Shown: one piece after another, positions 3,001 through 19,440 of the stretch
Numbering within the stretch: the stretch's first letter is position 1
Layout of the letters: the number at the start of each line of letters is the position of its first letter
Source of the DNA: the human T2T-CHM13v2.0 reference genome, Homo sapiens
Direction: 5' to 3'
Length of the DNA: 64,000 nucleotides
NCBI GenBank assembly: GCA_009914755.4
Contig: CP086569.2
Coordinates: 10,400,001 to 10,464,000, forward strand
Position numbers and translations under genes: made by a program
The notes under the pieces: generated by a model
What the model was told of the DNA's origin: nothing
What the model saw: the letters and a program-made list of their open reading frames with translations, nothing else
Database searches by the model: none

Positions 3001-6000
3001 GAATGCTTCTGTGTAGTTTTTATGTGAAGATATCTCCGTCTCCAAGATAGCAATCAAAGCCCTCCAAATATCCACTTCCAGATTCTATGAAAAGAATGTT
3101 TCAAAACTGCACAATCCAAAGAAAGTTTCAACTCTGTTTGAAGAATGCACTCATCCAAAGAAGTTTCTCTGAATGCTTCCGCATAGTTTTTATTTGAACA
3201 TATTTCCTTTTCTACCATAAGGCGTGAAGGGCTCCAAATATCCACATGCAGATTCTCCAAAAAGAGAGATTCTAAACTGCTCAATCTACAGATAGGTTCA
3301 ACTCTGTGAGTTGAATGCACACATCACAAAGAAGTTTCTGAGAATGCCTCTGTCTAGTTTTTATGTGAAGATATTTCCTTTTCCACCATAGGCTTCAAAT
3401 CGCTTCACATATCCACTTGCAGATTCTACAAAAAGAGTGTTTCAAAACTGCTCAATCAAAAGAAAGGTTCAACTCGGTGAGATGAATGCACACATCACAA
3501 AGACGTTCCACAGAATCCTACTGTCTAGTTTTTATATGAAGAAATTTGCTTTTACCCCAGAGGCTACAAAGCAATCAAAATATCCACTTGCAGATTGTAC
3601 AAAAAGAGTGTTTCAAAACTGCTCCATTAAAAGAAATGTTCAACTCTGTGAGCTGAATACACACATCACAAAGTAGTTTCTCAAAATGTTTCTGTCTAGT
3701 TTTTATATGAAGATATTACTTTTTCCACTGTGGGCCTCAAACCCCTCCAAATATCGATTTGCAGATACCACAAAAACACAGAGTCCAAATTGTGCAATCC
3801 AAAGAAAAAGGTACAACTCTGTGGGATAAATGGACACATCACAAAGCAGTTTCTTAGAATGCTTTTGTGTAGTTTTTATGTGAAGATATTTACTTTTCCC
3901 CATTAGGCCTCAAAGCGCTCCAAATATCCTCTTGGAGATTCTACTAAAAGAGTGTGTCAAAGCTGCTCAATCAAAAGTAATGTTGAATTCTGTAAGATGA
4001 ATGAGCACATCACAAAAAAGTTTCTCAGAATGCTTCTGTGTGGTTCTTATGCGAAGATACTTCCTTCTCCACCATTGGCCTCAAAGCACTCCACATATCC
4101 TCTTGCAGATTCTACAAAAAGAGTGTTTGAAAACTGGTGAATGAAAAGAAAGTTTCAATTCTGTGAAATGAATGCACTCATCCAAAGAAGTTTCTCAGAA
4201 TGCTTCTGTCTAGTTTTTATTTGAAGATACTTCCTTTTCCACCATCGGCCCCAAATCACTCCAAATATCCACTTACAGATTCTTCAAAAAGAGTTTTTCA
4301 AAACTGCTCAATCAAAAGAAAGGTTCATCTCTCTGAGATGAATGCACACATCACAAAGAAGTTTCTCAGAATGCTGCTGTATAGTTTTTATTTGAAGATG
4401 TTGCCTTTTCCACTAGTGGCCAAAAAGCTCTCCAAATATCCACTTGCAGATTCCACAAAAAGAGTGTTTCATAATTGCTCAATCAAAAGAAAGATTCAAC
4501 TCTCTGAGTTGAATGCACACATCGCAAAGAAGTTTCTGGGAATGCTTCTGTCCAATTTTAGAGTGAAGATATTTCATTTTCCACAATAGGCCTCAAAGCA
4601 CTCCAAATATCCACTTCCACATTCTACAAAAAGATTGTTTCAAAACTGCTCAATCAAAAGAAAGTTTCATCTCTGTGACATGAATGCATGCATCACAATG
4701 AAGTTTCTCATAATGCTTCCATGTAATTTTTATGGGCAGATATTTCCTTTTCAACCATAGGCCTCAAAGTTCTCCACATATCCAATTGCAGATTCTACAA
4801 AAAGAGTTTTTCAAAACTGCTCAATTAGAGGAAAGGTTCAAATCTGTGATATGAATGCACTGATCACAAAGAAGTTTGTCATAATGCTTCTGTGTAGTTT
4901 TATGTGAAGATATTTCCTTTTCCACAATAGGCCTCAGTGTGCTCCAAATATCCACTTGCTGATTATATAAAAAGAGTGTTTCAAAACTCCTCAATCAAAA
5001 GATAAGTTCAACTCTGTGACTTGAATGCACACATTACAAAGAAGTGTCTCACAATGCTTCTGTGTAGTTTTTATGTGAAGACATTTCCTTTTCCACAAGA
5101 AGCCTGAAAGCGCTCCAAATATCCACTTGAAGATCCTACAAAAAGAGTGTTTCAAAATGGTTCAATCAAAAGCAAGGTTCAACTCTGTGAGATGAATGCA
5201 CACATCACAAAGAAGCTGCTCAGAATGCTTTTGTATAGTTTTTATGTGAAGATATTTCGCTTTCCACCATAGGTCTCAACGGGCTCCAAATATCAACTTG
5301 CAGATTCTACAAAAAGAGTGTTTCCAAACTGCTCAATCAAATGACAGTTTCAACACTGTGAGATGAATGCACACATCACAGAGAAGTTTCTCAGAATGGT
5401 TCTGTGTAGTTTTTATGTGAAAATATTTCCTTTTCCACAATAGGTCTCAAAGCACTCCAAATATCCACTTGCAGATTCTACAAAAAGAGTGTTTCAAAAC
5501 TGCTCAATCAAAAGAAAGGTTTGACCCTGTGTGATGAATTTATTCATCACCAAGTAGTTTCTCAGAATGCTTCTGTGTAGTTTTTTTGTGAAGATATTTC
5601 CTTTTCCACAATAGGTCTCAAAGGGCTCCAAATATCCACTTGCAGATTGTACAAAAAGAGTGTTTCAAAAGGTCTCAATCAAAAGAAAGTTTCAAATCTC
5701 TGAGATAAATACACACATCACAAAGAAGTTTCTCAGAATGCTTCTGTGTAGTTTTATGTGAAGATATTTGCTTTTCCACAGTAGGCCTCTAAGCACTCCA
5801 TATAACCACTTGCAGAGTCTACCAAAAGGGTGTTTCAAAACTGCTCAGTCATAAGATAGGTTCAACCCTGTGAGATGAATGCACACATCACAAAGAAGTT
5901 TCTCAGAATGCTTCTGTGCAGTTTTTATGTGAAGATATTTCCTTTTCCACAATAGGCCTCAGTGTGCTCCAAATATCCACTTGCAGATTCTATAAAAAGA

Positions 6001-6932
6001 GTGTTTCCAAACTGCTCAATCAAATGAAAGTTTCAACACTGTGAGATGAATGCACACATCACAGAGAAGTTTCTCAGAATGGTTCTGTGTAGTTTTTATG
6101 TGAAAATATTTCCTTTTCCACAATAGGCCTCAAAGCGCTCCAAATATCCACTTGTAGATTCTACAAAAAGAGTGTTTCAAAACTGCTCAATCAACAGAAA
6201 GGTTCAACTCTGTGTGATCAATTTATTCATCACCAAGTAGTTTCTCAAAATCCTTCTGTGTAGTTTTTAAGTGAAGATATTCCCTTTTCCACAATAGGCC
6301 TCAAAGGGCTCCAAATACCCACTTGCAGATTGTACAAAATGAGTGTTTCAAAAAGCCTCAATCAAAAGAAAATTTCAAATCTGTGAGATAAATACACACA
6401 TCACAAAGAAGTTTCTCAGAATGCTTCTGTGTAGTTTTTATGTGAAAGTATTTCCTTTTCCACAACAGGCCTCAAAGTGCTCCAAATATCCACTTGAAGA
6501 TTATACAAAAAGAGTGTTTCAAAACTGCTCAATCAAAAGAAAGTTACCACTCTGTGTGATGAATTTATTCATCACAAAGAAGTTTCTCAGAATCCTTCTG
6601 TGTAGTTTTTATGTGAAGTCATTGCCTTTTCCTCCATAGGCCTCAAAGGGCTCCAAATACCCACTTCCATATTCTACAAAAAGAGAGTATCAAAACTGCT
6701 CAATCAAAAGATAGGTTCAACTCTGTGAGTTGAATGCACACATCACAAAGAAGTTTCTCAGAATGCTTCTATATAGTTTTTATGTGAAGATATTTCCTTT
6801 TCCACAATAGGCCTCAAAATGCTCCTAATATCCTCTTGCAGATTCTACAAAAACAGTGTTGCAAAACTGCTCAATCAAAAGAAAGTTTCAACTCTGTGAG
6901 ATGAATGCACACATCACAAAGAAGTTTCTCAG
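1..6932. repeat. Alpha satellite (alphoid) array of about 40 diverged 171-bp monomers, monomeric pericentromeric type. It lies in reverse-complement orientation relative to the usual consensus.
   Basis: A ~171-bp periodicity runs throughout. The recurring monomer motifs are ...ttctgtgtagtttttatgtgaagatatttccttttccacaataggcctcaaag...ctccaaatatccacttgcagattctacaaaaagag...gaatgcacacatcacaaagaagtttctcagaatgc. Monomer-to-monomer divergence is roughly 10–25%. One monomer near 2562–2632 is truncated to about 70 bp. Confidence 0.95.
5366..6734. repeat. Local higher-order duplication of about 4 alpha monomers (~684 bp) inside the monomeric array.
   Basis: Diagnostic monomer variants (..cacatcacagagaagtttctcagaatggttctg.. 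/ ..tgatgaatttattcatcaccaagtag.. / ..gagataaatacacacatcacaaagaag..) recur in the same order at 5366–6050 and 6050–6734. A further 'tttattcatcac' monomer follows at 6565. Confidence 0.6.
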
Positions 6933-7063
6933 GATGATGGCTGAATAGGAACAGCTCCAGTGTACAGCTCCCAGCATGAGCGATGCAGAAGAGGGTTGAT
7001 TTCTGCATTTCCCTGTGATGTACTGGGTTCATCTCACTAGGGAGTGCCAGACAGTGGGCTGAG
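6933..7063 (+). mobile_element. L1 5'UTR fragment, the extreme 5' end of an L1PA-type element, abutting the alpha satellite.
   Basis: gatgatggctgaataggaacagctccagtgtacagctcccagcatgagcgatgcagaagagggttgatttctgcatttcc...ctcactagggagtgccagacagtgggc matches the first ~130 nt of the primate L1 5'UTR (GGAGCCAAGATGGCCGAATAGGAACAGCTCCAG...). The similarity is lost after about 7063. Confidence 0.55.
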
Positions 7064-7419
7064 AAGTCTCTGCACCCCTGAAAGAGTGACTGTGTTGACT
7101 GTTTCCTGAGCTCTGTCATGCCCCAGAAACTTCCAGTAATGCGTGGAAGACCAGCATCTTGTTGGTGCTCTCCTTTCCAGTTTTCAAACAGGCTATATTG
7201 GAGACTCCCCATTTTGCAGGAAACAGGAATTCTTCATCAAGATGTGATGCATGGGACGTTTCTTTTCTCTGTAGTTTCACTCTCCTTGTCTACATGAAAA
7301 TAAACAGGATCCACACACCTACCTGTATGAGACTATTACGGCAACTGTGACACCCACGTGCTCACTAAGATTTGGCAGCCTGATCCTGGGACAATGGTAC
7401 TGATGGTTATCCAGACACA

Positions 7420-8739
7420 CCCCACCACAGTCACTAGCAAACCCACTCCCAAACACACAGACACACACGGGCACAAGCGTGGGAACACAAGCACACACAC
7501 AGACACACAAAGACACAGACAGCTTGAAGGTGAACAAGGGACAGAGGGATGGAGAGATAGAAAAGGAAGGAGAGTGAGAAACAGTGATAGAGAGAGAGAC
7601 AGAGAGGAATTGGGGAAATTGAGAGAGACAGAGAGCAAGCAAGCTGGAGTGGGAAGTAGAGAAATGGAGAGGGTGAAGGAGCTAGAGTGGGAGAGCAACA
7701 GACTTGGAGAGGGAGACTCTGCTCTGGTAGATAGGGGCCCCTTTGGCGAGGGTAGGGTGGAGGGTGCCTGGGCCGGGCTAGAACAGGGGGACAGGGCCAC
7801 CCATGCAGGAAAACCAATGGAGCCCTGAGACGTCTTTTTACTTGGATTGGTTAGTTGCTTTGGGGGTGCGTTTTGTAGCGTCATTCCTTTGTTGGCTCCT
7901 CCCTGTCCTCTTGGTGCTGTGGGCCCTGAAAATTATGGAGTGCACCGGCCCTGTGGTGGAAGCAGTGGCTTCGAGCCTGCCCATGGGCCGCAGCTTGGGT
8001 CTCTCTCACTTTCTGGGTGGTATGGCCATAGACAATGGCAGTGGCATGTGGCTGGCCCAAAAGCACGGTCCAGCTATGTCCACCTGATTCCAGGCATCAC
8101 CATCAACTCTGGGCTGTGAGGCTGGGATCAGGCACCCCAGAGCTGCTTGCCTGTGGCCGGGCTGCTCTCCCCCTCTACGCCCAAGCACCACTAGGCACCG
8201 CGCTGCACTTTCTGCCGACCTCCCACAGTGTCCCCCTGTCGCCGGTGGCTAGACCACATGTGGGACCGCAGAGGTGCCAGAGGCCTCCATCCCCTGCCAG
8301 GGCTCTGGACTCCCCAGGCGGCCACCCTCTCACTGACAGTCCAGGCCTTCCCCTGGCTCTTGAGCTCCTGAGCTTCCAATACCTGGGGCCCACTCAGGAC
8401 AAGATGTGCTCCAAGGCATTAGGGCCCAGGGCCCAGGGTCCTGGGTTCCCCTCTGGCCCTCTGCCTTGCAGTGGAAAAATTGTTTTGGATCCCTCACTGC
8501 CCCTCCTGCAAGGCCCCCTCTTGTCTCACACACCCAGAACCACCAGGGCTGCCCGAGTCGAACAGCTGGCCCAGCCCTGCGGGCCCTTTTTCTCACAATG
8601 CCCACTCCATCGTCGCTTGTCCCAAGGAAGACCTGGCCCATGGCCAACAGAGCAGGAAGGCCCTACTTTGCCCCGCACTGGCATTAGAGCCCCGGCAGCT
8701 TGATCCCAGGAAAGAGGGGCTGACAGACACCCAGAAACA
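7420..8739. repeat. Macrosatellite unit 1 (~1.32 kb). It lacks about 300 bp including most of the 5S-like segment.
   Basis: Bounded by the acacccc/accac landmarks at 7417 and 8737. Only the 5' end of the 5S-like block survives (gggtggtatggccatagac, 8016–8034) before the unit rejoins the D region homology. Confidence 0.7.
8016..8034 (-). pseudogene. Remnant of the 5S-like segment in unit 1, about the first 19 nt only.
   Basis: gggtggtatggccatagac is the reverse complement of GTCTAtGGCCATACCACCC. The rest is deleted relative to units 2 and 3. Confidence 0.4.
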
Positions 8740-10359
8740 CCCCACCACCACCAGGAGCAAACACATCCTCTCACACACAAACAGATACACAGGGGTGCAT
8801 GCACGCAGGCACACACGCACACGGACACACATGGACACACACACAGACAAAGACACAGACAGCTTGAAGAGAGGGATGGAGAGATAGAAACAAAGGGAGA
8901 GATAGAGACAGAGAGGGTGGAGAGACAGGGAGAGAAGGTGACAGAAGAGCGAGAGGTGGAGGGGGAAGAAAAGAGGGTGAGGGAGCCAGAGAGCAAGAGC
9001 GATTGAGCCTTGGAGAGGGAGGCTCTTCCCCAGATATACAGGGCCCCTTTGAGCAGGCCAGGGTAGGGTGGAGGGTGCTTGGGCTGGGCCAAACAGGGGG
9101 GCAGGGCCGTCCAAGGGAGAGGACCAACTGAGCCCTGAGACGTTTATTCTTGGGTTGGTTGGTTACTTTGGGGATGTGTTCGGTAGGGTCCTTCCTTTGT
9201 TTGCTCCTATCTGTCTTCTTGATGCGGTAGGCTCTGAGATTTTCAGAGTGTGCCTGTCCATCTTTCGGGAGCCATAATGCCGAGCATGCTCACAGTGCAC
9301 AAGACCTGGGTCTCTCTTGTGTCCTCGAGAATGGATTTCACACGAAGTTAGTGGCAGTGGAAATCCAAGTGCACAGGGATGGTTTTCCTGGTGGCTGATG
9401 AAGGCAATGTCCCTCCCCCGTGGAAAGCAGCCTATGCGTTGTGGAGCACGGAAAAGTGGAAGTAGAGTCAGGGGGTGGTTGGGAAGCATGGCGACAAAAG
9501 GGGGAAAGAGGGAGCGGGGAGCCAAAAGCCTACAGCACTCAGTATTCACAGGGGGTCTCGCATCCAAGTACTAAGCAGGCCCGACTCTGCTTAGCTTCCA
9601 AGATCAGTCAAGATCCCATGTGTTCAGGGTGGTATGGCCATAAAGGCCCACAGTGGCACCTGGCTGCCACAGGAGCCCAGCTCAGTCATGTCTGCTCCAC
9701 TCCAGGCATCACCGCCACCTCGGGGCCAAGGGGCTCAGATCCAGGGCCCCAGAGCTGCTCGCTCGCAGCCGGGCTGCTCTCCCCATCAAGGCCCCAGCAC
9801 CACTGGCCACCGTGCTGCGCCTTCTGCCGGCCTCCCAGAGCCACCTACCTCGCCTGCGGCCAGACCACGTGCAGGACCGCCATGGTGCTGCCCTGCTGCT
9901 GCACGGGAGAGCCAGAGGCCTCAGTCCCCTGCCCAGGTTCCAGGCACACCAGGTGGCCTCCCTTTTTGCAGATGCTCCAGGGGAGCTCCAGAGCTTCCAA
10001 CACATCGGGCTGGCTCAGGACTGCACGTGCTCTGAGGCATCAGGGCCAAGGGCCCATGGTCCTGGGATCCCCTCCGGTCCTCCTCCTTGCAGCAGAAAAA
10101 TTGTTTTGGATCCCTCTCCTCCCCTCCTGCAAGGCCCCCTCTTACCCCACACACCCAGAGCTGCCAGTGCTGCCCAGGGGCTAACAGCCGGCCCAGCCCC
10201 ACGGGCCCTTTATCCCACAACGCCCACACCATTATCGCTTGTCCCGACGAGGACCTGACCTTGGCCAATGGGGAGGGAAGGCTCTGCTTTTCCCCGTGCT
10301 GGCACTAGAGCCCCAGCAGCCTGATCCCTAGAAAGAGGAGCTGACAGTCACCAAGACAC
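8740..10359. repeat. Macrosatellite unit 2 (~1.62 kb), the most complete unit. It is CpG-depleted.
   Basis: Contains all modules including the full-length 5S-like segment at 9525–9645. Many positions that are CpG in unit 3 are TpG/CpA here. Confidence 0.75.
9525..9645 (-). pseudogene. 5S rRNA-derived segment (121 bp, about 88% identical by eye to canonical human 5S rRNA). Likely a pseudogene or 5S-related element inside macrosatellite unit 2.
   Basis: The reverse complement reads ..GGCCATACCACCCTGAACacatgGGATCTtGaCTGATCTtGGAAGCTAAGCAGaGTCGGGCCTGcTTAGTACTTGGATGcGAGACCcCCTGtGAATACtGaGTGCTGTAGGCTTTTGGC. Length and ends are conserved, including the terminal GGCTTTT T-run. Confidence 0.75.
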
Positions 10360-10524
10360 ACCCCACCACCACCACGAGCAAACCCACCCCAACACACACA
10401 CACAGAGATACACACAGGTGCACGTGCACAGACACACACGGACACACACACCACACCTGGGCACACACACACGGACACACAAAGACACAGACACAGATAG
10501 CTTGAAGTAAGGGAGGAGACTACC

Positions 10525-10972
10525 CCTCATATTGTCTTATGCCCAATTTCTGCCTCCAAAGAAAGAAGAAGTAAAATCTAAAAGGCAGAAATGAAATCCA
10601 CAGCCAGACAGCCCTGCGCCACACCCTGGGCCTGGTAGTTAAAGATCGACCCCTGACCTACTCTGTTATGTTATCTATAGATTACAGACATCGTATAGAA
10701 AAGCACTGTGAAAATCCCTGTCCTGTTTTGTTCTGATATAATTACCGGTGCATGCAGCCACCAGTCACATACCCTCTGCTTCCTCAATCCATCAGGACCT
10801 TCTCACGCGGACCCCCTTAGAGTTGTAAGCTCTTAAGAGGGACAGGAATTGCTCACTCAGAGAGCTCGGTTTTTGGAGATGTGAGAGTGCCGATGCTCCC
10901 AGCTGAATAAAGCCCTTCCTTCTACAACTCGGTGTCTGAAGGGTTTTGTCTGCGGCTCCTCCTGCTACAGGA
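10525..10972 (+). mobile_element. Solo-LTR-like insertion, of ERV1 / LTR2-like type (by recollection of the LTR 3' end), interrupting macrosatellite unit 3.
   Basis: About 450 bp absent from units 1 and 2, inserted between ..gacacagatagcttgaag and the resumed GA-rich module (..ggagagcaagggagacaggaatggagaaatagaa). It contains gctgaataaagcccttcc (a poly-A signal) and ends ..gggttttgtctgcggctcctcctgctaca, a TG..CA-type LTR terminus. Confidence 0.4.
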
Positions 10973-11599
10973 GAGCAAGGGAGACAGGAATGGAGAAATA
11001 GAACCAGAGGGAGAGCGAGAGAGACAGCGATACAGAGACAGAGAAGGGGGGAGGAGAGAGAGGGGGAGGGAAAGAGAGCCCGACAGTAGAGCGCCAGGTG
11101 GAGGGGGAAGTAGAGAAAGGGAGAGGGTGAGGGAGTTGTAGAGGGAGAGGGACAGAGTCATGGAAAGGGAGTCTCTACTCAGGTAGACAGAGCACCTTTG
11201 AGCAGGCCGGGGTGGGGTGGAAGGTGCTTGGGCTGGGCTAGAACAGGGGGTCAGGGCCCCCCACGTGGGAAAACCAAAGGAGCCCTGAGACGTGTTTTCT
11301 TTTTTCCTTGGATTGGTTGGTTGCTTCAGGGGAGCGTTTCATAGGGTTCTTCCTTTGTTTGTTTCTTTCTATCTCCTTGGTGCAGTGGGCCCCGAGATTT
11401 GTAGAGTGTGCTCATCCCTCTGGCTGGAGCCGTGGCGCCAAGCATGTCCACGCAGTGAGGCCTGGGTCTCTCTCCTGTCCTCAGGACTGGAGTTTACACG
11501 AAGTCGGTGGCCTTGGGAAACCAGGTGCACAGACACGGATTTCCTCGTGGCTGGCGAAGACAATGTCCTTCCCCTGGGGAAAGCAGCCCACGGGTTCTG

Positions 11600-12480
11600 G
11601 AGCGGAGGTCTTGGCTGGGGTCTGTGGGACCCGCTGCCCCTGCCCGCCCCTTCCCCCGGCTTGGACGATTGCAGCGGCGCTAGATGAATGAATAGAATTT
11701 CCTGGGAGTCCAGGAAGCCTGAAGACACCTGCGACCTCAGGAACGCGCGCCTGCGCCCTCGGGGTCGGTCCCGTCCCGCCCGGGTTGTAGCCAGGCTCCT
11801 GGTGGGCTGCTGCGAGTCGGAAGAGGTGGGATGCTGCTGCCCGGCTGTGCTGCAGTCGCGGATCTTCAGGAGGAGGTCCCGGGCTTCAGCTGGGACGCGT
11901 GGGCTGTCAAGGGGGAGCAGAGGCAGGGCGGGGGCGGGGTTGTGAAGCACTGAGACTAGAGGGGGAAAGAGGGAGGGAGCGGGAAGCCAAAAGCCCAAGG
12001 TACCTGCTATTACCAGGCGGAATCCCATCCAAGTACTAACCAGGCCCGACTCTGCTTAGCTTCAACAGATCAGAGGCAAGCGGGTGCGTTCAGGGTGGTG
12101 TGGCCTAGACGCTAGCAGCGGCGCCTGGCTGCCCCAAGAGCCCGTCCCAGCCATGCCCGAACGACTCCAGGCGTCACCGCCATCCCGGGGCAGCGGGTCT
12201 CGGATCCGGGACCCCCAGAGCCGCTCGCCTCTGCCCCAGGGCAGCTGTCTCCCTCTACACCCGAGTACCGCCGGCCTCCTGGCGAGTCCCGCCGTCACCG
12301 GCGGCCAGACCTGGCGCAGGACCAACGTGGCGCCGCCGTGCTGTTGCTGGCGGGCGCCAGAGGCCTCAGTCCCCTGCCCAGGATTCCGGCTCTCGGGGCG
12401 GCCTCCTTTCCGCCCACGCTCCAGTTCTTCCTCCAGCTCCCCAGCTCCGGAGCTTCCACCACATCTGCCGGCTCAGGACG
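11600..12480. promoter_or_regulatory. Candidate CpG island. Macrosatellite unit 3 retains dense CpGs and GC boxes, whereas paralogous units are CpG-decayed.
   Basis: Examples: aacgcgcgcctgcgccctcggggtcggtcccgtcccgcccgggttg, gcagggcgggggcggggttg, ccgggctgtgctgcagtcgcggatc, cgccgtcaccggcggccagacctggcgcaggaccaacgtggcgccgccg. The same aligned positions in unit 2 read tg/ca, e.g. ccgccacctcggggccaagg versus ccgccatcccggggcagcgg. Confidence 0.45.
11990..12110 (-). pseudogene. 5S rRNA-derived segment (~121 bp, about 85% identical by eye to canonical 5S) in CpG-rich macrosatellite unit 3.
   Basis: The reverse complement reads GTCTAgGcCaCACCACCCTGAACGCaCCCGcTtgccTCTGATCTgttGAAGCTAAGCAGaGTCGGGCCTGGTTAGTACTTGGATGGGAttCCGCCTGGtAATAgCaGGTaCcTtGGGCTTTTGGCTT. 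The C-box region TGGATGGGA and the T-run are retained. Confidence 0.75.
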
Positions 12481-12495
12481 GGTCGCGCTCATCCC

Positions 12496-13810
12496 TTAAC
12501 TTAACTTTTTGTTGTTTCTGTTTATATTTTATTGTGCTGTGTCTTGAAATGTTGTAGTTATTACTTTTGGATATTATTTAGTATTCCGACTTTGAATAAG
12601 AGTAGTTTGCACACCACACAGCTATAGTGTTATAATATTCTGTTTTGTTGTGTATCCTATTAGCAGTGAGGATTTTTTTTTTTATCTTTAGGTGATCATT
12701 TATTGCTCGTTAATGTTCTTTTCTTCCTGATTGAAGTACTTCCTTTAGCATTCCTTTAGGACAGGTGTGGTATTCATAAAATACTTCAGCTTTTGTTTGT
12801 CTGAAAAAGTTAGTATTTCTTCTTTTTATTTGAAGAATATTTTCACTGTATATTCTATTCTAAGGTAAAAGTTTTTTTTTCCTTTAGTACTTTAAATATT
12901 TATTGCTTCTCTCTCCTGACCAGTAGAGTTTCCACCGTAAAGTCTGCTGCCAGACGTGTTGGAGCTCCCCAGTATGTCATTTGTTTCTTTTCTCTTTCTT
13001 CCTTTAGAACTTTTCTTTATCTTTGACTTTTGGAAGATCTATTGAATGCTTTGAAGTAGTCTTTTTTGGGTTAAATCTGCTTAATGTTCTATAACATTTT
13101 TGTAGTTGGATATTGTTATCTTTCTCTAGGTTTGGAAAGTTCTCTGTGATTATCCCTCTGAATAAATTTTTCTACCCCTGCCTCTTTCTCTACATCTTCT
13201 TTAAAGCCAATAACTCTTAGATCTGTCTTTGTGAGGCTCTTTTCTAGATCCTCCCCTGCCTCTTTCCCTACATCTTCTTTAAAACAAATAACTCTTAGAT
13301 CTGTCTTTGTGAGGCTATATTCTGGATCCTGTTGGCATGACTTGTTGTTTTTATTCTTTCTCTTTTGTCTCTTCTATGTATTTTCAAAGAGCCGTCTTCA
13401 AGCTCACTATTTCTTCTGCTTGATCCATTCTGCTATTACATGGCTCTAATGCATTCTTCAACATGCCAATTGCATTTTTCAGCTCAGAATTTCTGCTTAA
13501 TTTGCTGTAACTATTTCAATCTCTTTGTTGAGTTTAGCTGATAAAATTTGGAATTTCTTTACTTTGTTATCTTAAATTTCTTTCAGTTTTTTTTTTAAAA
13601 AAATACAGCTATTTTGAATTCTCTGTCTGAAACGTCACATATCACTTTTTCTCCAGGATTTGTCCACAGTGCCTTATTTAGTTCACTTGGTGAGGTCATG
13701 TTTTCCTGGATGGTGTTGATGCTAGTAGATGTTCTTCAGTGTCAGGACATTAAAATCTTGGGCATGCAGCACCATATGAGAGGTTTAAAAAATAAAATTT
13801 AAAGAGAGAA
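12496..13810 (-). mobile_element. L1 (older L1PA/L1PB-like) ORF1 region and inter-ORF region, minus strand.
   Basis: The reverse complement encodes ORF1 motifs (…PGKHDLTK…, ENFPNLEK from ttctctaggtttggaaagttctc). Similar to the ORF1-upstream segment at 26404–26658 of the plus-strand L1. Confidence 0.7.
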
Positions 13811-14379
13811 AAGGTGAGTATTTATTGTAGTCTTCAATGTCGGGTTTATTTGTAGCTGTCTTTCATGGGAAGGTTTTTCACATATTTGAAAAGAGTTGGG
13901 TGTTGTGATCTAAGCCATATCTGCTTTATGGGGCACCTTATACCGAATAATGCTGTACTTCTTCCAGACTCAGAGAAGCACCACCTTGACAGCCTTCAAC
14001 AAGATCCAGGATAATTTTCTGGATTACTAGCCAGAGACTCTTTTTCCCTACCCTTATTTTCTCTCAAAGATACAGAGTATTTCTCTCTGTTCTAAGCCAC
14101 CTAAAGCTGGGAGAAGAAAGACACAAGCACCCGTGGCCACCACCACTATGACTGCCCTGGATCAGACCTAAAGCTAGCACAGCATGGGTCTTGCTCAAAT
14201 CCTGCTGCGTGCACTCTCTGACAACTGACTATGTTCACTCAAGGCCTTTGGTCTCTACAATTATCAGGTGGCAAAGCCAGCCAAGCCTGTGTTCTTTCCT
14301 TTAGGGCAGTGAGATCCCTCAGTCCCTGGCTGGGTCCAGAAGTGCCATTCAGAAGTCAGGGCTTTGGCCACTTTTTAAT
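13811..14379 (-). mobile_element. L1 5'UTR-like segment (older L1 family), minus strand. It is fused directly to a 3'-truncated L1 ORF2 on its right.
   Basis: ..acaggcttggctggctttgccacctgataattgtagagacc.. (reverse complement) matches ..ctggctggctttgccacctattaatcacagagtcc.. in the 5' region of the plus-strand L1 at ~26070. Confidence 0.5.
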
Positions 14380-16660
14380 AGGGTTTTTTGTTTTTCTCTC
14401 GTAAATTTAAATTCCTTATATTGAATATTAGATCTTTGTCAGATACATAGTTTGTAAATATTTTTTCCTCATTCTATAGGTTGTCTGTTCACTCTATTGA
14501 TAATTTCTTTTGCTGAGCACAAGCTTTTAAGTTTAATTAGATCCCACTTGTCAATAGTTGTATTTGTTGTTTTTGGTGTCTTTATCATGAAATCTTTGTC
14601 TCTTTCTATGTCCAGGATGGTATTGTCTAGGTTGTCTTCCAGGGCTTTTATAGTTTTGGGTTTTACATTTAAGTATTTAATCCATCTTGAGTTGATTTTG
14701 GTGTATGGTATAAGGAAGAAGTCCAACTTCAATCAGCATATGGCTAGCCAGTTATCCCAGCACCATTTATTGAATAGGGAATCTTTTCCCCTTTGCTTGT
14801 TTTTGCCAGCTTTGTCAAAGCTTAGATAGTTGTAGGTATGTGGTCTTACCTCCAACCTCTCTATTCTGTTCCTCTGGTGTATGTGTCTGTTTTTGTACTA
14901 CTACCATGCTGTTTTGGTTACTATAGTGCTGTAGTATATTTTGAAGTCAGGTAATATGATGCCTCAAGCTTTGTTCTTTTTGCTTAGGATTGCCTTGGCT
15001 ACTTAGGTTCTTTCTTGGTTCTATATGAATTTTTAAATAGCTTTTTTCTACTTCTGTGAAGCATGTCATTGGTAGTTTAATAGGAATAGCTTTGGGCAGT
15101 ACACCATTTAAATGATATTAATTCTTTCTCTGCATTAACATGGAATGATTTTTCATTTATTTGTGTCTTCTCTGACTTCTCTGAGCAGTGTTTTGTAATT
15201 TTCATTGTAGAGATTTTTCACCACCCTTGTTAGCTGTATTCGTATGTACTTTATTCTTTTCATGGAATTTGTGAATAAAATTGCCTCTCTGATTTGGTTC
15301 TTAGCTTGGCTCTTCTTGGTGTATAGGAATGCTAGCAAGTTTTGTATATTGATTTTGTGTCCTGAAACTTTGTGAAAGTTGTTTATCAGCTTAAGGAGTT
15401 TTTGGGTCACAACTATAGGGTTTAGATGGAGAATTATGTTGTCTGCAAACAGAGGTAGTTGGACTTCTCTTTCTATTTAGATACCCTTTATTTCTTTCTC
15501 TTGTCTGATTGCTCCAGAAAGGACTTCTAATACTATGTTGAATAGCAGTGGTGAGAGAGGGCATCCTTGTCTTGTGCGGGTTTCAAGGAGGATGCTTCCA
15601 CATTTTGCCCATTTAGTATAATGTTGGCTGTGAGTTTGTCATAGGTGGCCTTTATTATTTTGAGATATGTTCCTTTGATACCTCATTTATTGAGAATTTT
15701 TAACATGAAGTTTTGTTGAATTTTACTGAAAGCTTTTTCTGCATCCGTTGAGACAATCACGTGGTTCTTATCTTTAGTTTTATTTATGTTATGAATCACA
15801 TTTTATTGATTTGCTCATGGTGGACCAACCTTCCATTCCAGGGAAGAAGCTTACTTCACTATGGTGAATTAGCCTTTTGATATGTTGCTAGATTCAGTTT
15901 GCAAGTATTTTGTTGTGGGTTATTGAATGGATATTCAGGAAGGATACTGGCCTGAAGTTTTCTTTTTTTGTTGTGTCACTGCCAGGCTTTGGTATCAGGA
16001 TGATTCTGGCCTCATAGAACAAGTTGGGGAAGACCCCCTCCTCCTCTATTTCTTGAAATAGTATCAGTAGGACTGGTTCTGGCTCTCCTTTGTACATCTG
16101 TTAAAATTTGTTAATCTACCAGGTCCTGGGCTTTTTCGGGGGGTTGGTAGGCTATTTATTACAGATTCAATTTTTGGAGCTCATAATTGGTCTATTCAGA
16201 GACTGAATTTCTTCCTGGTTCAGTCTTGAGGAGTATATGTGTCCAGGAATTTATTAATCTCTTCTAGGGTTTCTAGTTTGTGTGTATAGAGGTGCTCGTA
16301 GTAGTTGCTGGTTGTTATTTTTATTTCCCTGGGGTCAGTGGTAACATTCCCTTCATCATTTCTAATTTTGTTTATTTGAATCTTCTCTCTTTTCTTCTTT
16401 ATTAGTCTAGCTAGTGCCCTATCTATCTTATTAATTTTTTCAAAAAACCTTGATTAAGTGATCTCTTGAACAGTTTTTCATGTCTCAATTTCTTTCAATT
16501 CAGCTCTGGTTTTAGTTATTTCTTGTCTTCTATAAGCTTTGTGGTTGAGTTCTTCTTGTTTCTCTAATTCTTTCAGTTGTGGTGTTAGGTTGTTAATTTG
16601 AGATATTTCTAATTTTTTGATATGGGCATTACTTCTTATGCCCCACTCTAACTTTTGTCC
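14380..16660 (-). mobile_element. L1 ORF2 (RT and C-terminal region) fragment, minus strand. It is 3'-truncated, with no 3'UTR or poly-A.
   Basis: Minus-strand ORFs encode L1 ORF2 peptides: 15894..16097 (…[19 protein letters not shown]…[13 protein letters not shown]), 15153..15410 (…MKRIKYIRIQLTRVVKNLYNENYKTLLREVREDTNK), 14469..14732 (…[30 protein letters not shown]…RVNRQP…). It ends at about 14380 with ..PIKKWAK. Confidence 0.8.
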
Positions 16661-18889
16661 TTCTAGAAAACTCAGAACTATGCCTTCTAAACCAATTGAA
16701 ACTTTCTCAGTGAATCAACCTGTTCTTCCTGAGGCAAAGTTAGCAATTTTCCGTTACACATGGTTCTTTCTCTGTAAGAATATCTAATGCAACAATGCAA
16801 GTGTTTCTTTCCCTCCTGGTAATGTGGGGAACTCCTTTTAGCTAAGACCAAGACTTAAAACCTTGTTCTTTCAACATTAATGAAGATCTATTTAGAAAGC
16901 CTCCATTTTTACAGAAAAGATATATAAACACCAATGAAAATGAATATGAAATTATATGACACAATTACATTGTGGAAAGACTGAATAAATAAGTGAACTA
17001 AGCTCTAAGAAAAAATATGATGATATAAAAAGATATAGAAGTAAAAACCTGGGCTGGTATAGCATAATTAATGTATCAGTAAAGTATGTACAGTGTAGAA
17101 GTGGCAGAAAGACAGCATAGAGAGTAAGACCTGACCAAAAGCTTTAAGAAAAGTTCTATACCCTTAAACGAGATTAAAGTGGACTCAGGAAAACATGGGA
17201 CACATGAGGGAAAGGACACATGCTCCAGATGGGCCAAAGCTCAGAGCATCTCTACCTTCTCCAGGAGGAAAGGGGAGGCAAAGCAGCAGGCAGAAGACAG
17301 CACAGCCAGGTCAGCACAGGGCGAAGCCAGGTGGGCTCCATCATACAGGTAGTGAGGAGCCACTGCCAGGTGGGCTTTATTCATTAGTTGGTTTTGTTTC
17401 CTTTAGTAACAAAGAGACATGATCAAAGTTGACCTTTGTAAGTGTTGCTGCAGCTGAACAAAAAGATGGATAAAACCAGTGTTTTAAAAATTATGTTGTA
17501 TACAGCACTAGCCTCAGTGAGTTATTAGTAGAACACACAGGTACACACATGCACACACATTCACACTGAGCCCAGATTATTCTGGCAAATTCTGGGTTAA
17601 GCTAACTAAAAGAAACATCTTTAGTTCTGGACTTCTCAGAACCTGGAATGCGGCTATATGACTCATAAAACAGCAAGGTTAAGACAGAGCATGTCATTTT
17701 TTCCAGAATTGTTGAAACATTTTCCTTCCCTTGGCATCAGTGTCACCTTCTTTCTCCTGGTTCTCCATCAACCTCTTTGGCTGCTCCTTCTTGATTTCCT
17801 TTTTCACGATCTGCTGCTGCTCAGCCATTCTCTTTTCATTCCCCATGGATTTCTCAAGTGTGTTTCTATTCCTGCATTTTAAACTTTCCTTGTTTTTCCT
17901 GACACTTCTCCTTGTCTGACCCTCCCCTGTTCTAAGGCAGGTGTTCCATCTGTGTGTGCTTTTGGCATCCTGGGATGCTCCCAGCATGTTCCCTGACACA
18001 CTCCATCAGGTTTTCTCTGCAGACTCTGTGAGAGCAGCAGCCTTGTTTCCACCGATCCTTCAATGCTCAGCACATAACACAGAAGCTGACTCCATAACAT
18101 TTAGTTGGCCAACTGAGACTAAATGTATGTTCCTCTAGATCTTAAAGAGTTACAAAAACATAGCACAATAGTCAAAACAATTCTCTTTAGTCAGGAGTTC
18201 TCTATATATGTACGACAGTTTGAAGTCATTATTAAAGCAAAGTGAAAGAGAAACTGTCACAGAATTCCCTAAGATAAATTATTTTGCTTTAATCTTCAAT
18301 TCATCATGTGAGATAATCAAGACCAAGTGTTATTGTAAATATTTCTTACAACACAATTAACTGATTTTTATTGTTTGAAATAACCACAAAATAAATCAGT
18401 CAATTAAAAATTGCATAAATAATCATTTCAAATAAAATTCTGCCTAAATTTTACTCATATGTTCAAATGATAATGAGCTCATAGGTGTTTCCAATACCTC
18501 AGTCAAAACATTGTACTGATTCCAGCTGTGGGAATAGTATCTGCAAGTTATTTTACAGATGGGGAAAAGGTACTTATGTGACATTGGCCTTTGCACTACT
18601 ATGCACTTTTGGGTCAGGAAAAAGCTGTTCCCTTAAAATCCTAAAATCTCTTCTCTCAGGTCTGAATGTGGATGGGAAACAAAGTTTTACAAATTTTAGC
18701 CACAGATGTTTTATTCCTTGCTTAAAGCAGTGACTAGATAAAGGCCCCTTGAAGAGCCTCCAATGATTCTTTAGAAGCGTGTGCCTGCGAATATCTTCCT
18801 GAAACACTCCCTTGTCTCTGCCCAAAATCACCTTAGGTAGGAAAATCAAAACTCAGCAGTCTGAGGAGATCCAAGGGGATCATTGAGCT

Positions 18890-19440
18890 CTGAGTCTTAT
18901 GAGAGAAGAGAGAGAGTTCTAAGACTGTTTGTGTATAAATGTATGGGTTCCAAGTGCAATTTTGCTGTAAGCATGGATGGCATAGTGGTGAACTCAGGGC
19001 TTTTAGGTATCCATCACCAGAATAATGCACATTGTACCCATTAAGTAATTTCTCACTGTTCACCCCTTCCATCCCCTCACCCTCCTGAGTCTCCATTATT
19101 CCACTCTCTACATCAATATCTACACATCTTTTAGCACCTGCTAATGAGTGATAAAATATGATGTTTACTCTGTGTCTGGCTTGCCTCACTTACAAAAATG
19201 GCCTCCAGTTTCATCCATGTGTCTGCAAAAAAGTTATGATTCTATTGTTTTTTATGCCTGAGTAGTATTTCATTGTGTATATTTTCTACATTTTCTTTCT
19301 CCAATCATTTGTTGATGGACATTTAGGTTGATTTTATATCTGTGCTACTGTGAATAGTATTGCAACAAATACACAAGTATAGTTATCTTTCTGATAGATT
19401 GATTTCTTTTCCTTTGCATAAATACTCAGTGGTGGGATTG
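18890..19440 (-). mobile_element. L1 3'-end fragment (ORF2 C-terminus / 3'UTR, older family), minus strand.
   Basis: The reverse complement matches L1 3' terminal sequences (..gcaataccattcacagtagcacagatataaaatcaacctaaatgtccatcaacaaatgattgg..tactactcaggcataaaaaacaatagaatcataac..). Confidence 0.65.

What the first reader, a model, noticed from the sequence alone, without database searches (positions are those of the whole stretch)
9525..12110. Two full-length 5S-rRNA-like elements retain gene length and the Pol III T-run terminator
Both copies (9525–9645 and 11990–12110, minus strand) are exactly about 121 nt. They start with GTCTA..GGCCATACCACCC-like and end with ..GTAGGCTTTTGGC-like sequence. 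The internal control region around box C (TGGATGGGA) is partly conserved in unit 3. Although diverged 12–15% from canonical 5S, they could still be Pol III transcribed, or may represent a distinct 5S-derived element co-amplified within a satellite unit. A 5S-derived module as a constituent of a centromere-proximal tandem repeat is unusual.
Basis: partly seen in the sequence, partly recalled or inferred. Interest (0 to 1): 0.55.

Follow-up and report, generated by a model that had tools for sequence, protein, structure and literature searches.

The report
Decayed 5S rDNA units beside centromere
The two 5S-like elements are real but are decayed pseudogenes inside a fossil fragment of the 5S ribosomal DNA repeat that was copied next to a primate centromere; this repeat family is already catalogued in the complete human genome, so the finding is ordinary.

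Summary
Window 9525-9645(-) and 11990-12110(-) are full-length 5S rRNA homologues: RF00001 59.5 and 55.8 bits (gathering score 38; the canonical human gene scores 114.6), 85.1% and 83.6% identical to canonical 5S, each followed by TTTT.

They are not modules of a new satellite. The whole block 7374-12495 is about 3.5 old, mutually 70-77% identical units of the 5S rDNA repeat, spacer included, 440 bp from alpha satellite. It matches the canonical 2,239-bp unit along its length and the published 5SRNA_Comp subunit consensus sequences 13719 and 13720. It lacks the array's Alu and carries a solo LTR. It forms the edge of a segmental duplication of at least 10 kb, with about 21 paralogues recovered.

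Hoyt et al. (bioRxiv 10.1101/2021.07.12.451456) already list such copies at 49 locations on 13 chromosomes, enriched near centromeres.

Both genes look dead as rRNA. 9/34 and 7/34 helix pairs are broken, as random substitution predicts, with no compensatory changes. 8/9 and 5/9 CpGs are lost. Each copy has substitutions in box A and box C, and copy 1 also in the intermediate element. The paralogues show no extra conservation of the 5S segment.

Residual Pol III transcription cannot be excluded. Interest is low.

The parts
1..6936 (.). Alpha satellite (171-bp monomers, 342-bp dimer periodicity, only 71-74% matches). This is context and shows the block is centromere-proximal.
   Evidence: TRF
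7374..12495 (-). The whole 5S rDNA-derived block: about 3.5 old-type repeat units with the genes on the minus strand.
   Evidence: Self-BLAST; alignment to the canonical 2,239-bp unit and to published subunit consensus sequences 13719/13720; boundaries read
7374..8010 (-). Partial unit A, spacer only: CA-rich tract, GA-rich tract and a 13719-like segment at 7745-7989. The stretch that would hold its 5S gene is deleted.
8014..8033 (-). 5S remnant: only the first ~20 nt of the gene (rc = GTCTATGGCCATACCACCCAG). The same truncation junction is present in paralogue L060.
8011..9524 (-). Unit B: upstream spacer (13720-like 8344-8621), CA/GA tracts, and a 13719-like segment at 9009-9402. It has no LTR (empty site) and CpG o/e of 0.27.
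9525..9645 (-). 5S pseudogene copy 1: 121 nt, 59.5 bits, 85.1% identical to canonical, 9/34 pairs broken, 8/9 CpGs lost. Promoter-box changes: box A G60A, IE G71C, box C G86C and G93C. Followed by TTTT.
9667..9677 (-). Upstream D-box position (-32 to -22) of copy 1: GGCTCCTGTGG, 2 mismatches to the canonical GGCTCTTGGGG.
   Evidence: the D-box definition is from memory (Nielsen et al. 1993)
9646..10507 (-). Upstream spacer of copy 1 (13720-like 9659-9770 and 9985-10243), ending in a CA-rich microsatellite at about 10362-10500. The left copy of the LTR target-site duplication, GAAG, is at 10504-10507.
10508..10969 (+). Solo LTR, 462 bp, with AATAAA at about 10907 and a ...CTGCTACA end. It is inserted in the spacer at canonical-unit position 822/823. 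The 4-bp TSD GAAG is intact in paralogue L060. This is probably the 'LTR2' of Hoyt et al., but that identity was not verified.
   Evidence: naming
10970..11989 (-). Spacer downstream of copy 2: GA-rich tract and a 13719-like segment at 11178-11558. There is no Alu where the canonical unit has one, 36 bp 3' of the gene.
11990..12110 (-). 5S pseudogene copy 2: 121 nt, 55.8 bits, 83.6% identical to canonical, 7/34 pairs broken, 5/9 CpGs lost. Promoter-box changes: box A G60A (private to the window), box C G89T/A90T (shared by the whole family). Followed by TTTT. It belongs to a family of at least 20 paralogues that share about 15 derived changes.
12132..12142 (-). Upstream D-box position (-32 to -22) of copy 2: GGCTCTTGGGG, identical to canonical.
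11550..12495 (.). Stretch around copy 2 with CpG-island composition: GC 61-73%, CpG o/e 0.55-0.85. The units to its left have o/e 0.22-0.32.
12496..22000 (.). AT-rich interspersed-repeat (L1-type) sequence that continues the segmental duplication. It is 94-95% identical to paralogues L051, L071 and L089. The same junction with the 5S spacer is present in the paralogues and in L109. The 22000 end is where my query stopped, so the true right end was not determined.

Best explanation
The two elements are non-functional 5S rRNA pseudogenes inside a fossil piece of the 5S rDNA tandem array. A short stretch of an ancestral ('old-type', pre-Alu) 5S rDNA locus was copied as genomic DNA into a pericentromeric region. 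The copied piece included several units with their spacers, the upstream promoter region, and the flanking L1-rich sequence. It was then spread among pericentromeres by segmental duplication. Outside the active array, the copies escaped both concerted evolution and selection. Since then they have decayed roughly neutrally, through CpG deamination, point substitutions, deletions and one solo-LTR insertion. The 121-nt length, the T-run and the partly intact promoter boxes are inherited remnants, not evidence of maintained function. Shown here: homology of the whole unit to the 5S rDNA unit, membership of the published 5SRNA_Comp family, and the decay signatures. Inferred: the duplication route out of the chr1q42 locus, and transcriptional silence.
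For: (1) Both elements are RF00001 homologues but score about half of the real gene: 59.5 and 55.8 bits against 114.6. (2) The canonical 2,239-bp unit, recovered from contaminant contigs, aligns along the whole length of each window unit at about 70-81%, not just over the 5S. The published 5SRNA_Comp subunit consensus sequences 13719 and 13720 are 99.7% identical to that canonical unit and hit every window unit at 70-81%. (3) Upstream promoter-proximal DNA was co-duplicated. GGCTCYTGKGGCAGCCAGGYGCC occurs exactly twice in the window, 9 nt upstream of each gene, with 0 matches expected by chance. This excludes an RNA-mediated origin. (4) Decay signatures: 9/34 and 7/34 helix pairs are broken, against 6.9+-1.6 and 8.2+-1.7 expected for randomly placed substitutions, with no compensatory double changes. 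Copy 1 threaded on the 5S structure gives +7.0 kcal/mol against -32.4 for canonical, and the copy 2 MFE has z=+1.16. 8/9 and 5/9 CpGs are lost, 6 and 3 of them by CpG-type transitions. (5) There is no extra constraint. Divergence among 21 paralogues is 0.033 in the 5S block against 0.020-0.072 in equal-sized flank blocks, and window-versus-others is 0.062 against 0.043-0.124. Post-dispersal variable columns fall in the internal control region as often as chance predicts (8/18, P=0.75). (6) The block is the edge of a large duplication: 94-95% identity to L051, L071 and L089 out to at least window position 22000. (7) Contigs L109 and L058 join perfect canonical units to old-type spacer on each side of the array. 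L109 also has the same L1 junction as window 12495. This places the source at the 5S rDNA locus itself. (8) Hoyt et al. describe exactly this: 5SRNA_Comp monomers at 49 locations on 13 chromosomes, enriched in centromere transition regions, lacking the AluY and carrying an LTR.
Against: Both copies pass the Rfam threshold, keep a T4 terminator and keep most of box A, the intermediate element and box C. Copy 2 has an intact -32/-22 upstream element. The ancestor of the copy-2 family accumulated its about 15 changes mostly outside the internal control region (2 of 16, P=0.02; P=0.09 when CpG sites are excluded). The roughly 950 bp around copy 2 still has CpG-island composition, and its CpG transition rate is only about 3 times the non-CpG transition rate. 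That is less decay than expected for DNA heavily methylated in the germline. Some human 5S pseudogenes (RNA5SP141) are transcribed in a TFIIIA-dependent way. Transcription was not and could not be measured here. The origin model relies on metagenome contigs that could be chimeric. No recovered contig is the same locus as the window, which is 8-10% from all paralogues, so the species and chromosome of the window are unknown.
Confidence: 0.9

Rival explanations
1. These are transcribed 5S variant genes. One or both copies, most plausibly the copy-2 type, still recruit TFIIIA/TFIIIC/TFIIIB and Pol III and terminate at the T4 run. The result would be a ~120-nt 5S-like RNA that cannot fold or assemble as 5S rRNA, perhaps acting like RNA5SP141 as an unshielded 5'-triphosphate RNA.
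For: RF00001 score above threshold. T4 run retained. Copy 2 has an intact intermediate element, an intact TGGATGGGA, an intact upstream GGCTCTTGGGG, and only one box A change, which is private to the window. Family-ancestral changes avoid the internal control region (P=0.02). The setting has CpG-island composition with weak CpG decay. There is precedent for TFIIIA-dependent transcription of a human 5S pseudogene.
Against: Every definition of the box C core (+80-90, +82-92, +80-97) is hit: G86C and G93C in copy 1, G89T/A90T in copy 2. Copy 1 also carries IE G71C and 2 mismatches in the upstream element, and has lost 8/9 CpGs, which is typical of long-term methylation. After dispersal the internal control region varies as freely as the rest of the gene (8/18 variable columns), and the 5S block is no more conserved than its flanks. 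The pericentromeric setting, 440 bp from alpha satellite, is usually heterochromatic (inference).
Confidence: 0.12
2. This is a novel centromere-proximal satellite whose repeat unit happens to contain a 5S-derived module that was co-amplified with unrelated sequence.
For: There is tandem arrangement with about 2.46 kb spacing next to alpha satellite.
Against: There are only about 3.5 units, 70-77% identical to each other, with different deletions in each. The non-5S parts are not unrelated: they are homologous to the spacer of the true 5S rDNA unit and to the published subunits 13719 and 13720. There is no sign of homogenisation.
Confidence: 0.02
3. These are processed (RNA-mediated, retrotransposed) 5S pseudogenes that landed by chance in a repeat.
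For: Many dispersed human RNA5SP pseudogenes are isolated 5S-only copies. Hoyt Table S2 lists short non-centromeric singletons of 290-525 bp.
Against: Homology to the rDNA unit continues upstream of the transcription start through the promoter region and through about 2 kb of spacer on both sides. There is no poly(A) tail or target-site duplication around the 121-nt segments.
Confidence: 0.01

Closest known systems
5SRNA_Comp composite repeat, monomeric ('singleton') form (Hoyt et al., T2T-CHM13 repeat annotation; bioRxiv 10.1101/2021.07.12.451456, main text and Table S2)
   Same: The same building blocks in the same order: 5S, subunit 13720 (upstream spacer), CA simple repeat, GA-rich tract, subunit 13719. 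No AluY. An LTR in the spacer. Located in a centromere transition region. 1-2 tandem units. Spread by segmental duplication.
   Different: The window has about 3.5 units with two full-length 5S copies plus a 20-nt remnant, whereas the typical recovered paralogue (L060) has one full copy plus the remnant. The window copy is 8-10% from all 21 recovered paralogues and abuts alpha satellite and L1 rather than an LSAU unit. In my alignment the LTR sits about 1.1 kb from the Alu site of the array unit (canonical positions 822/823 against 1929-2203), not 'at the same location' as the preprint words it. Three recovered paralogues (L045, L046, L115) have no LTR, as do units A and B of the window.
Canonical human 5S rDNA array unit (chr1q42, about 2.2 kb; 128 units in CHM13)
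   Same: Homologous over the whole unit. Same gene orientation, upstream GGCTCTTGGGG element, CA and GA tracts, and T-run.
   Different: The canonical gene scores 114.6 bits with all 34 pairs intact. The canonical unit has an Alu 36 bp 3' of the gene, a T5 plus backup T-runs, CpG o/e of 0.78, and near-identity between units. The window units are 70-81% identical to it, lack the Alu, carry an extra ~200 bp in the upstream spacer (9770-9985 and 12229-12427), and have decayed genes.
Dispersed human 5S rRNA pseudogenes (RNA5SP genes), including the transcribed RNA5SP141
   Same: 5S-derived, about 120 nt, detectable with RF00001, with mutations that prevent normal 5S function. At least one member is transcribed in a TFIIIA-dependent way.
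   Different: No sequence of RNA5SP141 was available to compare. Whether these two copies carry RNA5SP names, or are expressed, was not testable. These copies are DNA-mediated duplicates that keep their spacer.
Orphons / degenerate edge units of tandem gene arrays (Childs et al. 1981 concept; cited in PMC3225859)
   Same: Units of a tandemly repeated gene family that left the array, or sit at its edge, escape homogenisation and decay.
   Different: Here the orphon block was further propagated by pericentromeric segmental duplication.

Membership tests
5S rRNA homologue (Rfam RF00001) | Covariance-model score at or above the gathering threshold (38 bits) over the full model | tested here: met
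   59.5 and 55.8 bits, model positions 1-120 of 120
Functional 5S rRNA gene | Conserved five-helix, three-way-junction secondary structure | tested here: not met
   9/34 and 7/34 consensus pairs are broken, with no compensatory changes. Copy 1 threaded energy is +7.0 kcal/mol against -32.4 for canonical. The MFE folds are not the 5S fold, and copy 2 has z=+1.16.
Functional 5S rRNA gene | Intact internal control region: box A +50-64, IE +67-72, box C +80-97 (coordinates) | tested here: not met
   Copy 1 has 1, 1 and 2 mismatches (G60A; G71C; G86C, G93C). Copy 2 has 1, 0 and 2 mismatches (G60A; G89T, A90T). The effect on TFIIIA binding is inferred, not measured.
Functional 5S rRNA gene | Pol III terminator: a run of at least 4 T directly after the gene | tested here: met
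   GGCTTTTGGC follows both copies. This is T4, against T5 plus two further T-runs in the canonical unit.
Functional 5S rRNA gene | Human upstream promoter element at -32 to -22 (GGCTCTTGGGG; definition recalled from Nielsen et al. 1993) | tested here: inconclusive
   Identical in copy 2 and 2 mismatches in copy 1. The literature definition could not be checked in the held library.
Functional 5S rRNA gene | Purifying selection: the gene is much more conserved than its spacer among copies | tested here: not met
   Divergence among paralogues is 0.033 in the 5S block against 0.020-0.072 in flank blocks. Copy 1 against copy 2 is 76.8% identical, against 70-74% for the spacers. Variable columns are not depleted in the ICR.
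Functional 5S rRNA gene | Transcription by Pol III and incorporation into ribosomes | not testable with these tools
   No expression or ChIP data are available here.
5SRNA_Comp composite (Hoyt et al.) | Contains 5S plus composite subunits 13719 and 13720, with a CA simple repeat and a GA-rich tract | tested here: met
   13719 hits 7745-7989, 9009-9402 and 11178-11558. 13720 hits 8344-8621, 9659-9770 with 9985-10243, and 12122-12229 with 12427-12490. All hits are at 70-81%. The CA and GA tracts are visible.
5SRNA_Comp composite, monomeric form | Lacks the AluY of the chr1 array and carries an LTR (LTR2) insertion | tested here: met
   No Alu 3' of either gene. A 462-bp solo LTR at 10508-10969 with a 4-bp TSD. 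Its identity as Repbase LTR2 could not be tested because no repeat library was available.
5SRNA_Comp composite, monomeric form | Located in a centromere transition region and part of a segmental duplication | tested here: met
   Alpha satellite ends at 6936, 440 bp from the block. About 21 paralogues at 85-95% identity, with homology continuing for at least 10 kb.
Satellite DNA | Many head-to-tail copies kept similar by homogenisation | tested here: not met
   About 3.5 units, 70-77% identical, each with its own deletions or insertions.
Processed (retrotransposed) 5S pseudogene | Homology limited to the transcribed 120 nt, with flanks unrelated to rDNA | tested here: not met
   Homology continues through the upstream region and the whole spacer.

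The most novel reading that the evidence does not exclude
The copy-2-type pseudogene is a still-active Pol III unit. This type comprises at least 20 pericentromeric paralogues that share one set of about 15 mutations. They keep box A, the intermediate element, TGGATGGGA, the upstream element and a T4 terminator, and they sit in DNA that has resisted CpG decay. Collectively these copies would produce a misfolding 5S-like, 5'-triphosphate RNA from pericentromeres, a possible RIG-I ligand of the RNA5SP141 kind. Alternatively, the CpG-island-like stretch is kept unmethylated because TFIIIA/TFIIIC binding there acts as a chromatin boundary at the alpha-satellite edge.
Probability: 0.1. Interest if true: 0.45.

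Novelty: already known. Interest (0 to 1): 0.15.

Why it matters
As it stands, this matters little. It is a correctly spotted example of a catalogued repeat: 5S rDNA-derived composite copies in centromere transition regions. It shows how units that leave a tandem gene array decay. Two things have modest value. First, such copies pass the Rfam threshold, so automated annotation will call them 5S genes or pseudogenes. The structure, promoter-box and CpG checks used here separate them from working genes. Second, the contigs recovered here suggest that the active chr1 array is flanked on both sides by old-type spacer, and that the dispersed copies were derived from that locus including its L1 flank. 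This refines the published origin scenario. If the copy-2 family were transcribed, it would be a multi-copy pericentromeric source of aberrant Pol III RNA, which would matter for innate-immune sensing. Nothing here shows that it is.

Tried and rejected
(1) I looked for a third full 5S in the block with permissive cmscan (E<=10, 6900-13000). None was found. Only a 20-nt 5' remnant at 8014-8033 was found, by eye and by alignment.

(2) The genome-contig scan (bacterial and archaeal genomes) with the upstream pattern returned 41 loci. In the BLAST of the window block against all fetched loci (E<=1e-10), none of them matched.

(3) I tried to read Chiang et al. 2018 (PMC5815369) and Naesens et al. 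2022 (PMC10075094) to compare with the RNA5SP141 sequence and TFIIIA ChIP data. Neither paper is held.

(4) Literature searches for base-by-base TFIIIA contact data in box C gave only box coordinates, not per-base effects. The impact of G86C and G89T/A90T on TFIIIA binding therefore remains an inference.

(5) I tested whether substitutions spare base pairs, which would indicate a functional RNA. They do not.

(6) I tested whether the 5S is more conserved than its flanks among paralogues. It is not.

(7) Retrotransposed pseudogene and novel satellite were both considered and rejected on flank homology and on unit number and identity.

(8) The LTR family could not be identified without a repeat library. 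The name LTR2 is taken from Hoyt et al.

(9) The species and chromosome of the window could not be determined. No recovered contig is identical to it.


Full report

Yes. A gathering-threshold scan of the whole window against Rfam gives exactly two matches, both RF00001 (5S rRNA) on the minus strand. They lie at 9527-9645 (59.5 bits, E=6e-10) and 11992-12110 (55.8 bits, E=5.6e-09), and both cover the full model. A permissive rescan of 6900-13000 at E<=10 adds no further 5S match.

Against it, copy 1 (9525-9645) has 18 substitutions and no indels (85.1% identity). Copy 2 (11990-12110) has 18 substitutions, one 1-nt deletion and one 1-nt insertion (83.6%). Both are followed by GGCTTTTGGC, a T4 run.

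**2. What surrounds them?**

The window is primate pericentromeric DNA.
- Positions 1-6936 are alpha satellite with 171/342-bp periodicity and only 71-74% matches.
- The rest carries Alu-type SRP matches and mir-1299-like repeats.
- After an L1 5'UTR-like fragment and about 300 bp of unassigned sequence, a GC-rich block runs from 7374 to 12495. It ends abruptly in AT-rich L1-type sequence.

Self-comparison shows the block consists of repeat units only 70-74% identical to each other. The layout is:
- Partial unit A at 7374-8010.
- Unit B at 8011-9524. Its 5S is reduced to the first ~20 nt, at 8014-8033 (rc GTCTATGGCCATACCACCCAG).
- A complete unit at 9525-11989, which starts with 5S copy 1 and contains a 462-bp insertion.
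- The start of a fourth unit at 11990-12495, comprising 5S copy 2 and its upstream spacer.

The insertion at 10508-10969 is a solo LTR on the plus strand, with AATAAA near its 3' end and a ...CTGCTACA terminus. Units A and B and paralogues L115 and L045 show the empty site. Paralogue L060 shows an intact 4-bp target-site duplication, GAAG.

**3. Related sequences from elsewhere**

A 23-nt degenerate pattern from just upstream of both genes (GGCTCYTGKGGCAGCCAGGYGCC) occurs exactly twice in the window, 9 nt upstream of each gene, with 0 matches expected by chance. A 19-nt version scanned against metagenome contigs recovered two kinds of contaminant primate DNA.

Kind (a) is the canonical 5S rDNA unit.
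- It appears in 16 loci with a 100% canonical gene.
- The period is 2,239 bp in L113.
- It scores 114.6 bits on RF00001 with every pair intact.

Kind (b) is about 21 dispersed paralogues of the window block.
- They are 85-93% identical over window 11000-12700.
- The 18 scanned with Rfam score 48.8-66.4 bits on their 5S-like element.

The same scan of bacterial and archaeal genomes returned 41 loci, none of which matched the window block at E<=1e-10.

**4. The whole unit is 5S rDNA, not just the 121 nt**

The canonical unit aligns to each window unit along essentially its whole length at 70-81%. This covers the gene plus about 125 bp upstream, the upstream spacer, the CA-rich and GA-rich tracts, and the downstream spacer. 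There are three differences.
- The canonical unit has an Alu 36 bp 3' of the gene (unit positions 1929-2203). The window units lack it.
- The window units carry about 200 extra bp in the upstream spacer (9770-9985 and 12229-12427).
- One window unit carries the LTR, at canonical position 822/823.

This excludes a retrotransposed 5S pseudogene. It also excludes a satellite that merely captured a 5S module.

**5. Already described**

Hoyt et al. (bioRxiv 10.1101/2021.07.12.451456) define the composite '5SRNA_Comp'. It forms an array of 128 units on chromosome 1 with an AluY, plus monomers at 49 locations on 13 chromosomes. The monomers are enriched in centromere transition regions, lack the AluY and carry an LTR2. 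The authors attribute the monomers to segmental duplication.

Their Table S2 lists the loci, which are mostly about 3.2-kb 'singletons (~1-2 tandem units)' in CEN regions of chr9, 12, 13, 14, 15, 16, 20 and 21. It also gives consensus sequences for the two spacer subunits. The first 399 nt of each consensus match my canonical unit at 99.7% and hit every window unit at 70-81%. Membership in this family is therefore tested and met.

Two points of detail differ from the preprint's wording.
- In my alignment the LTR site is about 1.1 kb from the Alu site, not at the same position.
- Some dispersed copies have no LTR: L045, L046 and L115, and window units A and B. This agrees with the 'no TE insertion' rows of their table.

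**6. Are the two genes alive?**

As 5S rRNA, almost certainly not.

Structure. 9 of 34 (copy 1) and 7 of 34 (copy 2) consensus base pairs are broken. Substitutions of the same types placed at random would break 6.9+-1.6 and 8.2+-1.7, so the observed numbers match the null. No pair has a compensatory double change. Canonical 5S folds into the three-helix junction at -50.5 kcal/mol. Copy 1 folds into an unrelated hairpin, and threaded on the 5S structure it gives +7.0 kcal/mol against -32.4 for canonical. Copy 2 folds no better than shuffled sequence (z=+1.16).

Promoter. I used the standard coordinates: box A +50-64, IE +67-72, and box C +80-97 with core +80/82-90/92.
- Copy 1 has G60A, G71C, G86C and G93C.
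- Copy 2 has G60A and G89T/A90T.

Every definition of the box C core is hit in both copies. The upstream -32/-22 element (definition recalled from Nielsen et al. 1993) is intact in copy 2 and has two mismatches in copy 1.

Mutation spectrum. Copy 1 has lost 8 of 9 CpGs, six by C>T or G>A. Copy 2 has lost 5 of 9.

Selection. Copy 1 and copy 2 are 76.8% identical, against 70-74% for their spacers. Among the paralogues, the 5S block has mean pairwise divergence 0.033, inside the range of equal-sized flank blocks (0.020-0.072). For the window against the others, the figure is 0.062 against 0.043-0.124.

**7. History**

All 19 paralogue 5S elements plus window copy 2 share the same roughly 15 derived changes. 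These are ΔC6, T12C, A32C, T35G, G37C, +G45/46, C46T, G47T, G89T, A90T, G99T, C104G, a change at position 106, G110A and T112C. The gene was therefore already degenerate before the block was dispersed.

Homology between the window and paralogues L051, L071 and L089 continues rightwards at 94-95% to at least position 22000. The block is thus the edge of a segmental duplication of at least 10 kb.

Two contigs link this to the active locus.
- L109 is canonical (Alu, gene, 125 bp upstream; 98-99.7%). It then switches to old-type upstream spacer and the same L1 junction as window 12495.
- L058 is a full canonical unit whose last gene is followed by old-type downstream spacer running into the LTR.

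If these contigs are not chimeric, the present array sits between old-type flanks. Window copy 2 would then be the positional homologue of the site where the Alu-bearing unit later expanded.

L060 has the truncated-5S junction of window unit B directly left of its LTR-bearing spacer. The typical dispersed copy therefore has one full pseudogene plus the remnant, and the window retains an extra full unit, copy 1. Units B and C differ by 26%, whereas the window and L060 differ by about 14%. The L060 lineage probably lost a unit by unequal crossover (inference).

The window is 8-10% from every recovered paralogue, while the paralogues are 2-7% from each other. It is either an early-branching paralogue or comes from another primate. 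This could not be resolved.

**8. What keeps the alternative alive?**
- The family-ancestral changes avoid the internal control region: 2 of 16, binomial P=0.02, weakening to P=0.09 when CpG positions are excluded.
- The roughly 950 bp around copy 2 (11550-12495) still has CpG-island composition: GC 61-73% and o/e 0.55-0.85. This compares with 0.22-0.32 in the units nearer the alpha satellite and 0.78 in the canonical unit.
- On the window lineage, CpG transitions are only about 3 times as frequent per site as other transitions. That is lower than expected for DNA heavily methylated in the germline.
- At least one human 5S pseudogene, RNA5SP141, is transcribed in a TFIIIA-dependent way.

After dispersal, however, the control region varies as freely as the rest of the gene (8 of 18 variable columns, P=0.75). 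I put residual Pol III transcription of the copy-2 type at roughly 10%. It cannot be settled without ChIP and RNA data mapped to a complete assembly.

**9. Verdict**

The 'unusual new satellite module' reading is wrong. This is a member of an already catalogued repeat family, namely 5S rDNA-derived composite copies in centromere transition regions. Its two 5S copies behave as neutrally decaying pseudogenes. Novelty: already known. Interest: low.

Noticed in passing
window 11550-12495 versus 7374-10506: There is a sharp CpG gradient inside the block. The stretch around copy 2 keeps CpG-island composition (o/e 0.55-0.85), and its CpG transition rate is only about 3 times the non-CpG transition rate. 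The alpha-satellite-proximal units are fully CpG-depleted (o/e 0.22-0.32). Paralogue L060 still has o/e 0.62 where the window has 0.32 (window 9620-10500). This is unexplained. Possible causes are methylation spreading from the centromere side, or protection of the copy-2 side.
   Followed up: partly
L109 (1-587 versus 588-1732) and L058 (rc 1-1025 versus 1025-3239): These metagenome contigs join perfect canonical 5S rDNA units to 'old-type' spacer of the dispersed kind on either side. L109 also has the same L1 junction as window 12495. They look like the two edges of the chr1q42 array. Assembly chimeras were not excluded.
   Followed up: partly
canonical unit positions 822/823 versus 1929-2203; window 10508-10969: The LTR of the dispersed copies and the Alu of the array unit are about 1.1 kb apart in my alignment. 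The preprint says the LTR2 is 'at the same location' as the AluY. Also, L045, L046, L115 and window units A and B have the LTR site empty.
   Followed up: yes
window 13175-13330: This is a 78-bp tandem duplication (2 copies, 92% matches). It appears specific to the window: alignments to L060, L063, L109 and L120 break at 13252/13253 with a 78-bp overlap in the paralogue.
   Followed up: partly
window 38222-38479: Tandem 48/92-bp repeats match the mir-1299 precursor family (RF04142) at 74.5, 55.1 and 39.8 bits, all below the gathering score of 89. They are paralogous mir-1299-like repeats typical of pericentromeric duplications, not the annotated miRNA itself.
   Followed up: no
L074 (BNJS01002349.1), 5S at 756-873, 2929-3049, 5091-5207, 7288-7410: This is a four-unit tandem 5S array with about 2.17-kb spacing, whose genes score 91, 52, 80 and 52 bits. 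It alternates better and worse copies and aligns to the window units at only about 70%. Its source organism is unknown. It may be another primate or mammal, or a variant 5S cluster.
   Followed up: no
window 1-6936 and 6940-7060: The alpha satellite here is old and heterogeneous (dimeric 342-bp periodicity, 71-74% matches), not a homogeneous higher-order array. It ends at an L1 5'UTR-like fragment, which is 83.7% identical to window 32075-32196 on the opposite strand.
   Followed up: no
5S positions 1-121 of the copy-2 family (window 11990-12110 and 19 loci): The roughly 15 changes shared by the whole family lie almost entirely outside the internal control region (2 of 16, P=0.02; P=0.09 without CpG sites). 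This hints that the ancestor may have stayed under promoter constraint for a while before dispersal. The test is post hoc and marginal.
   Followed up: yes
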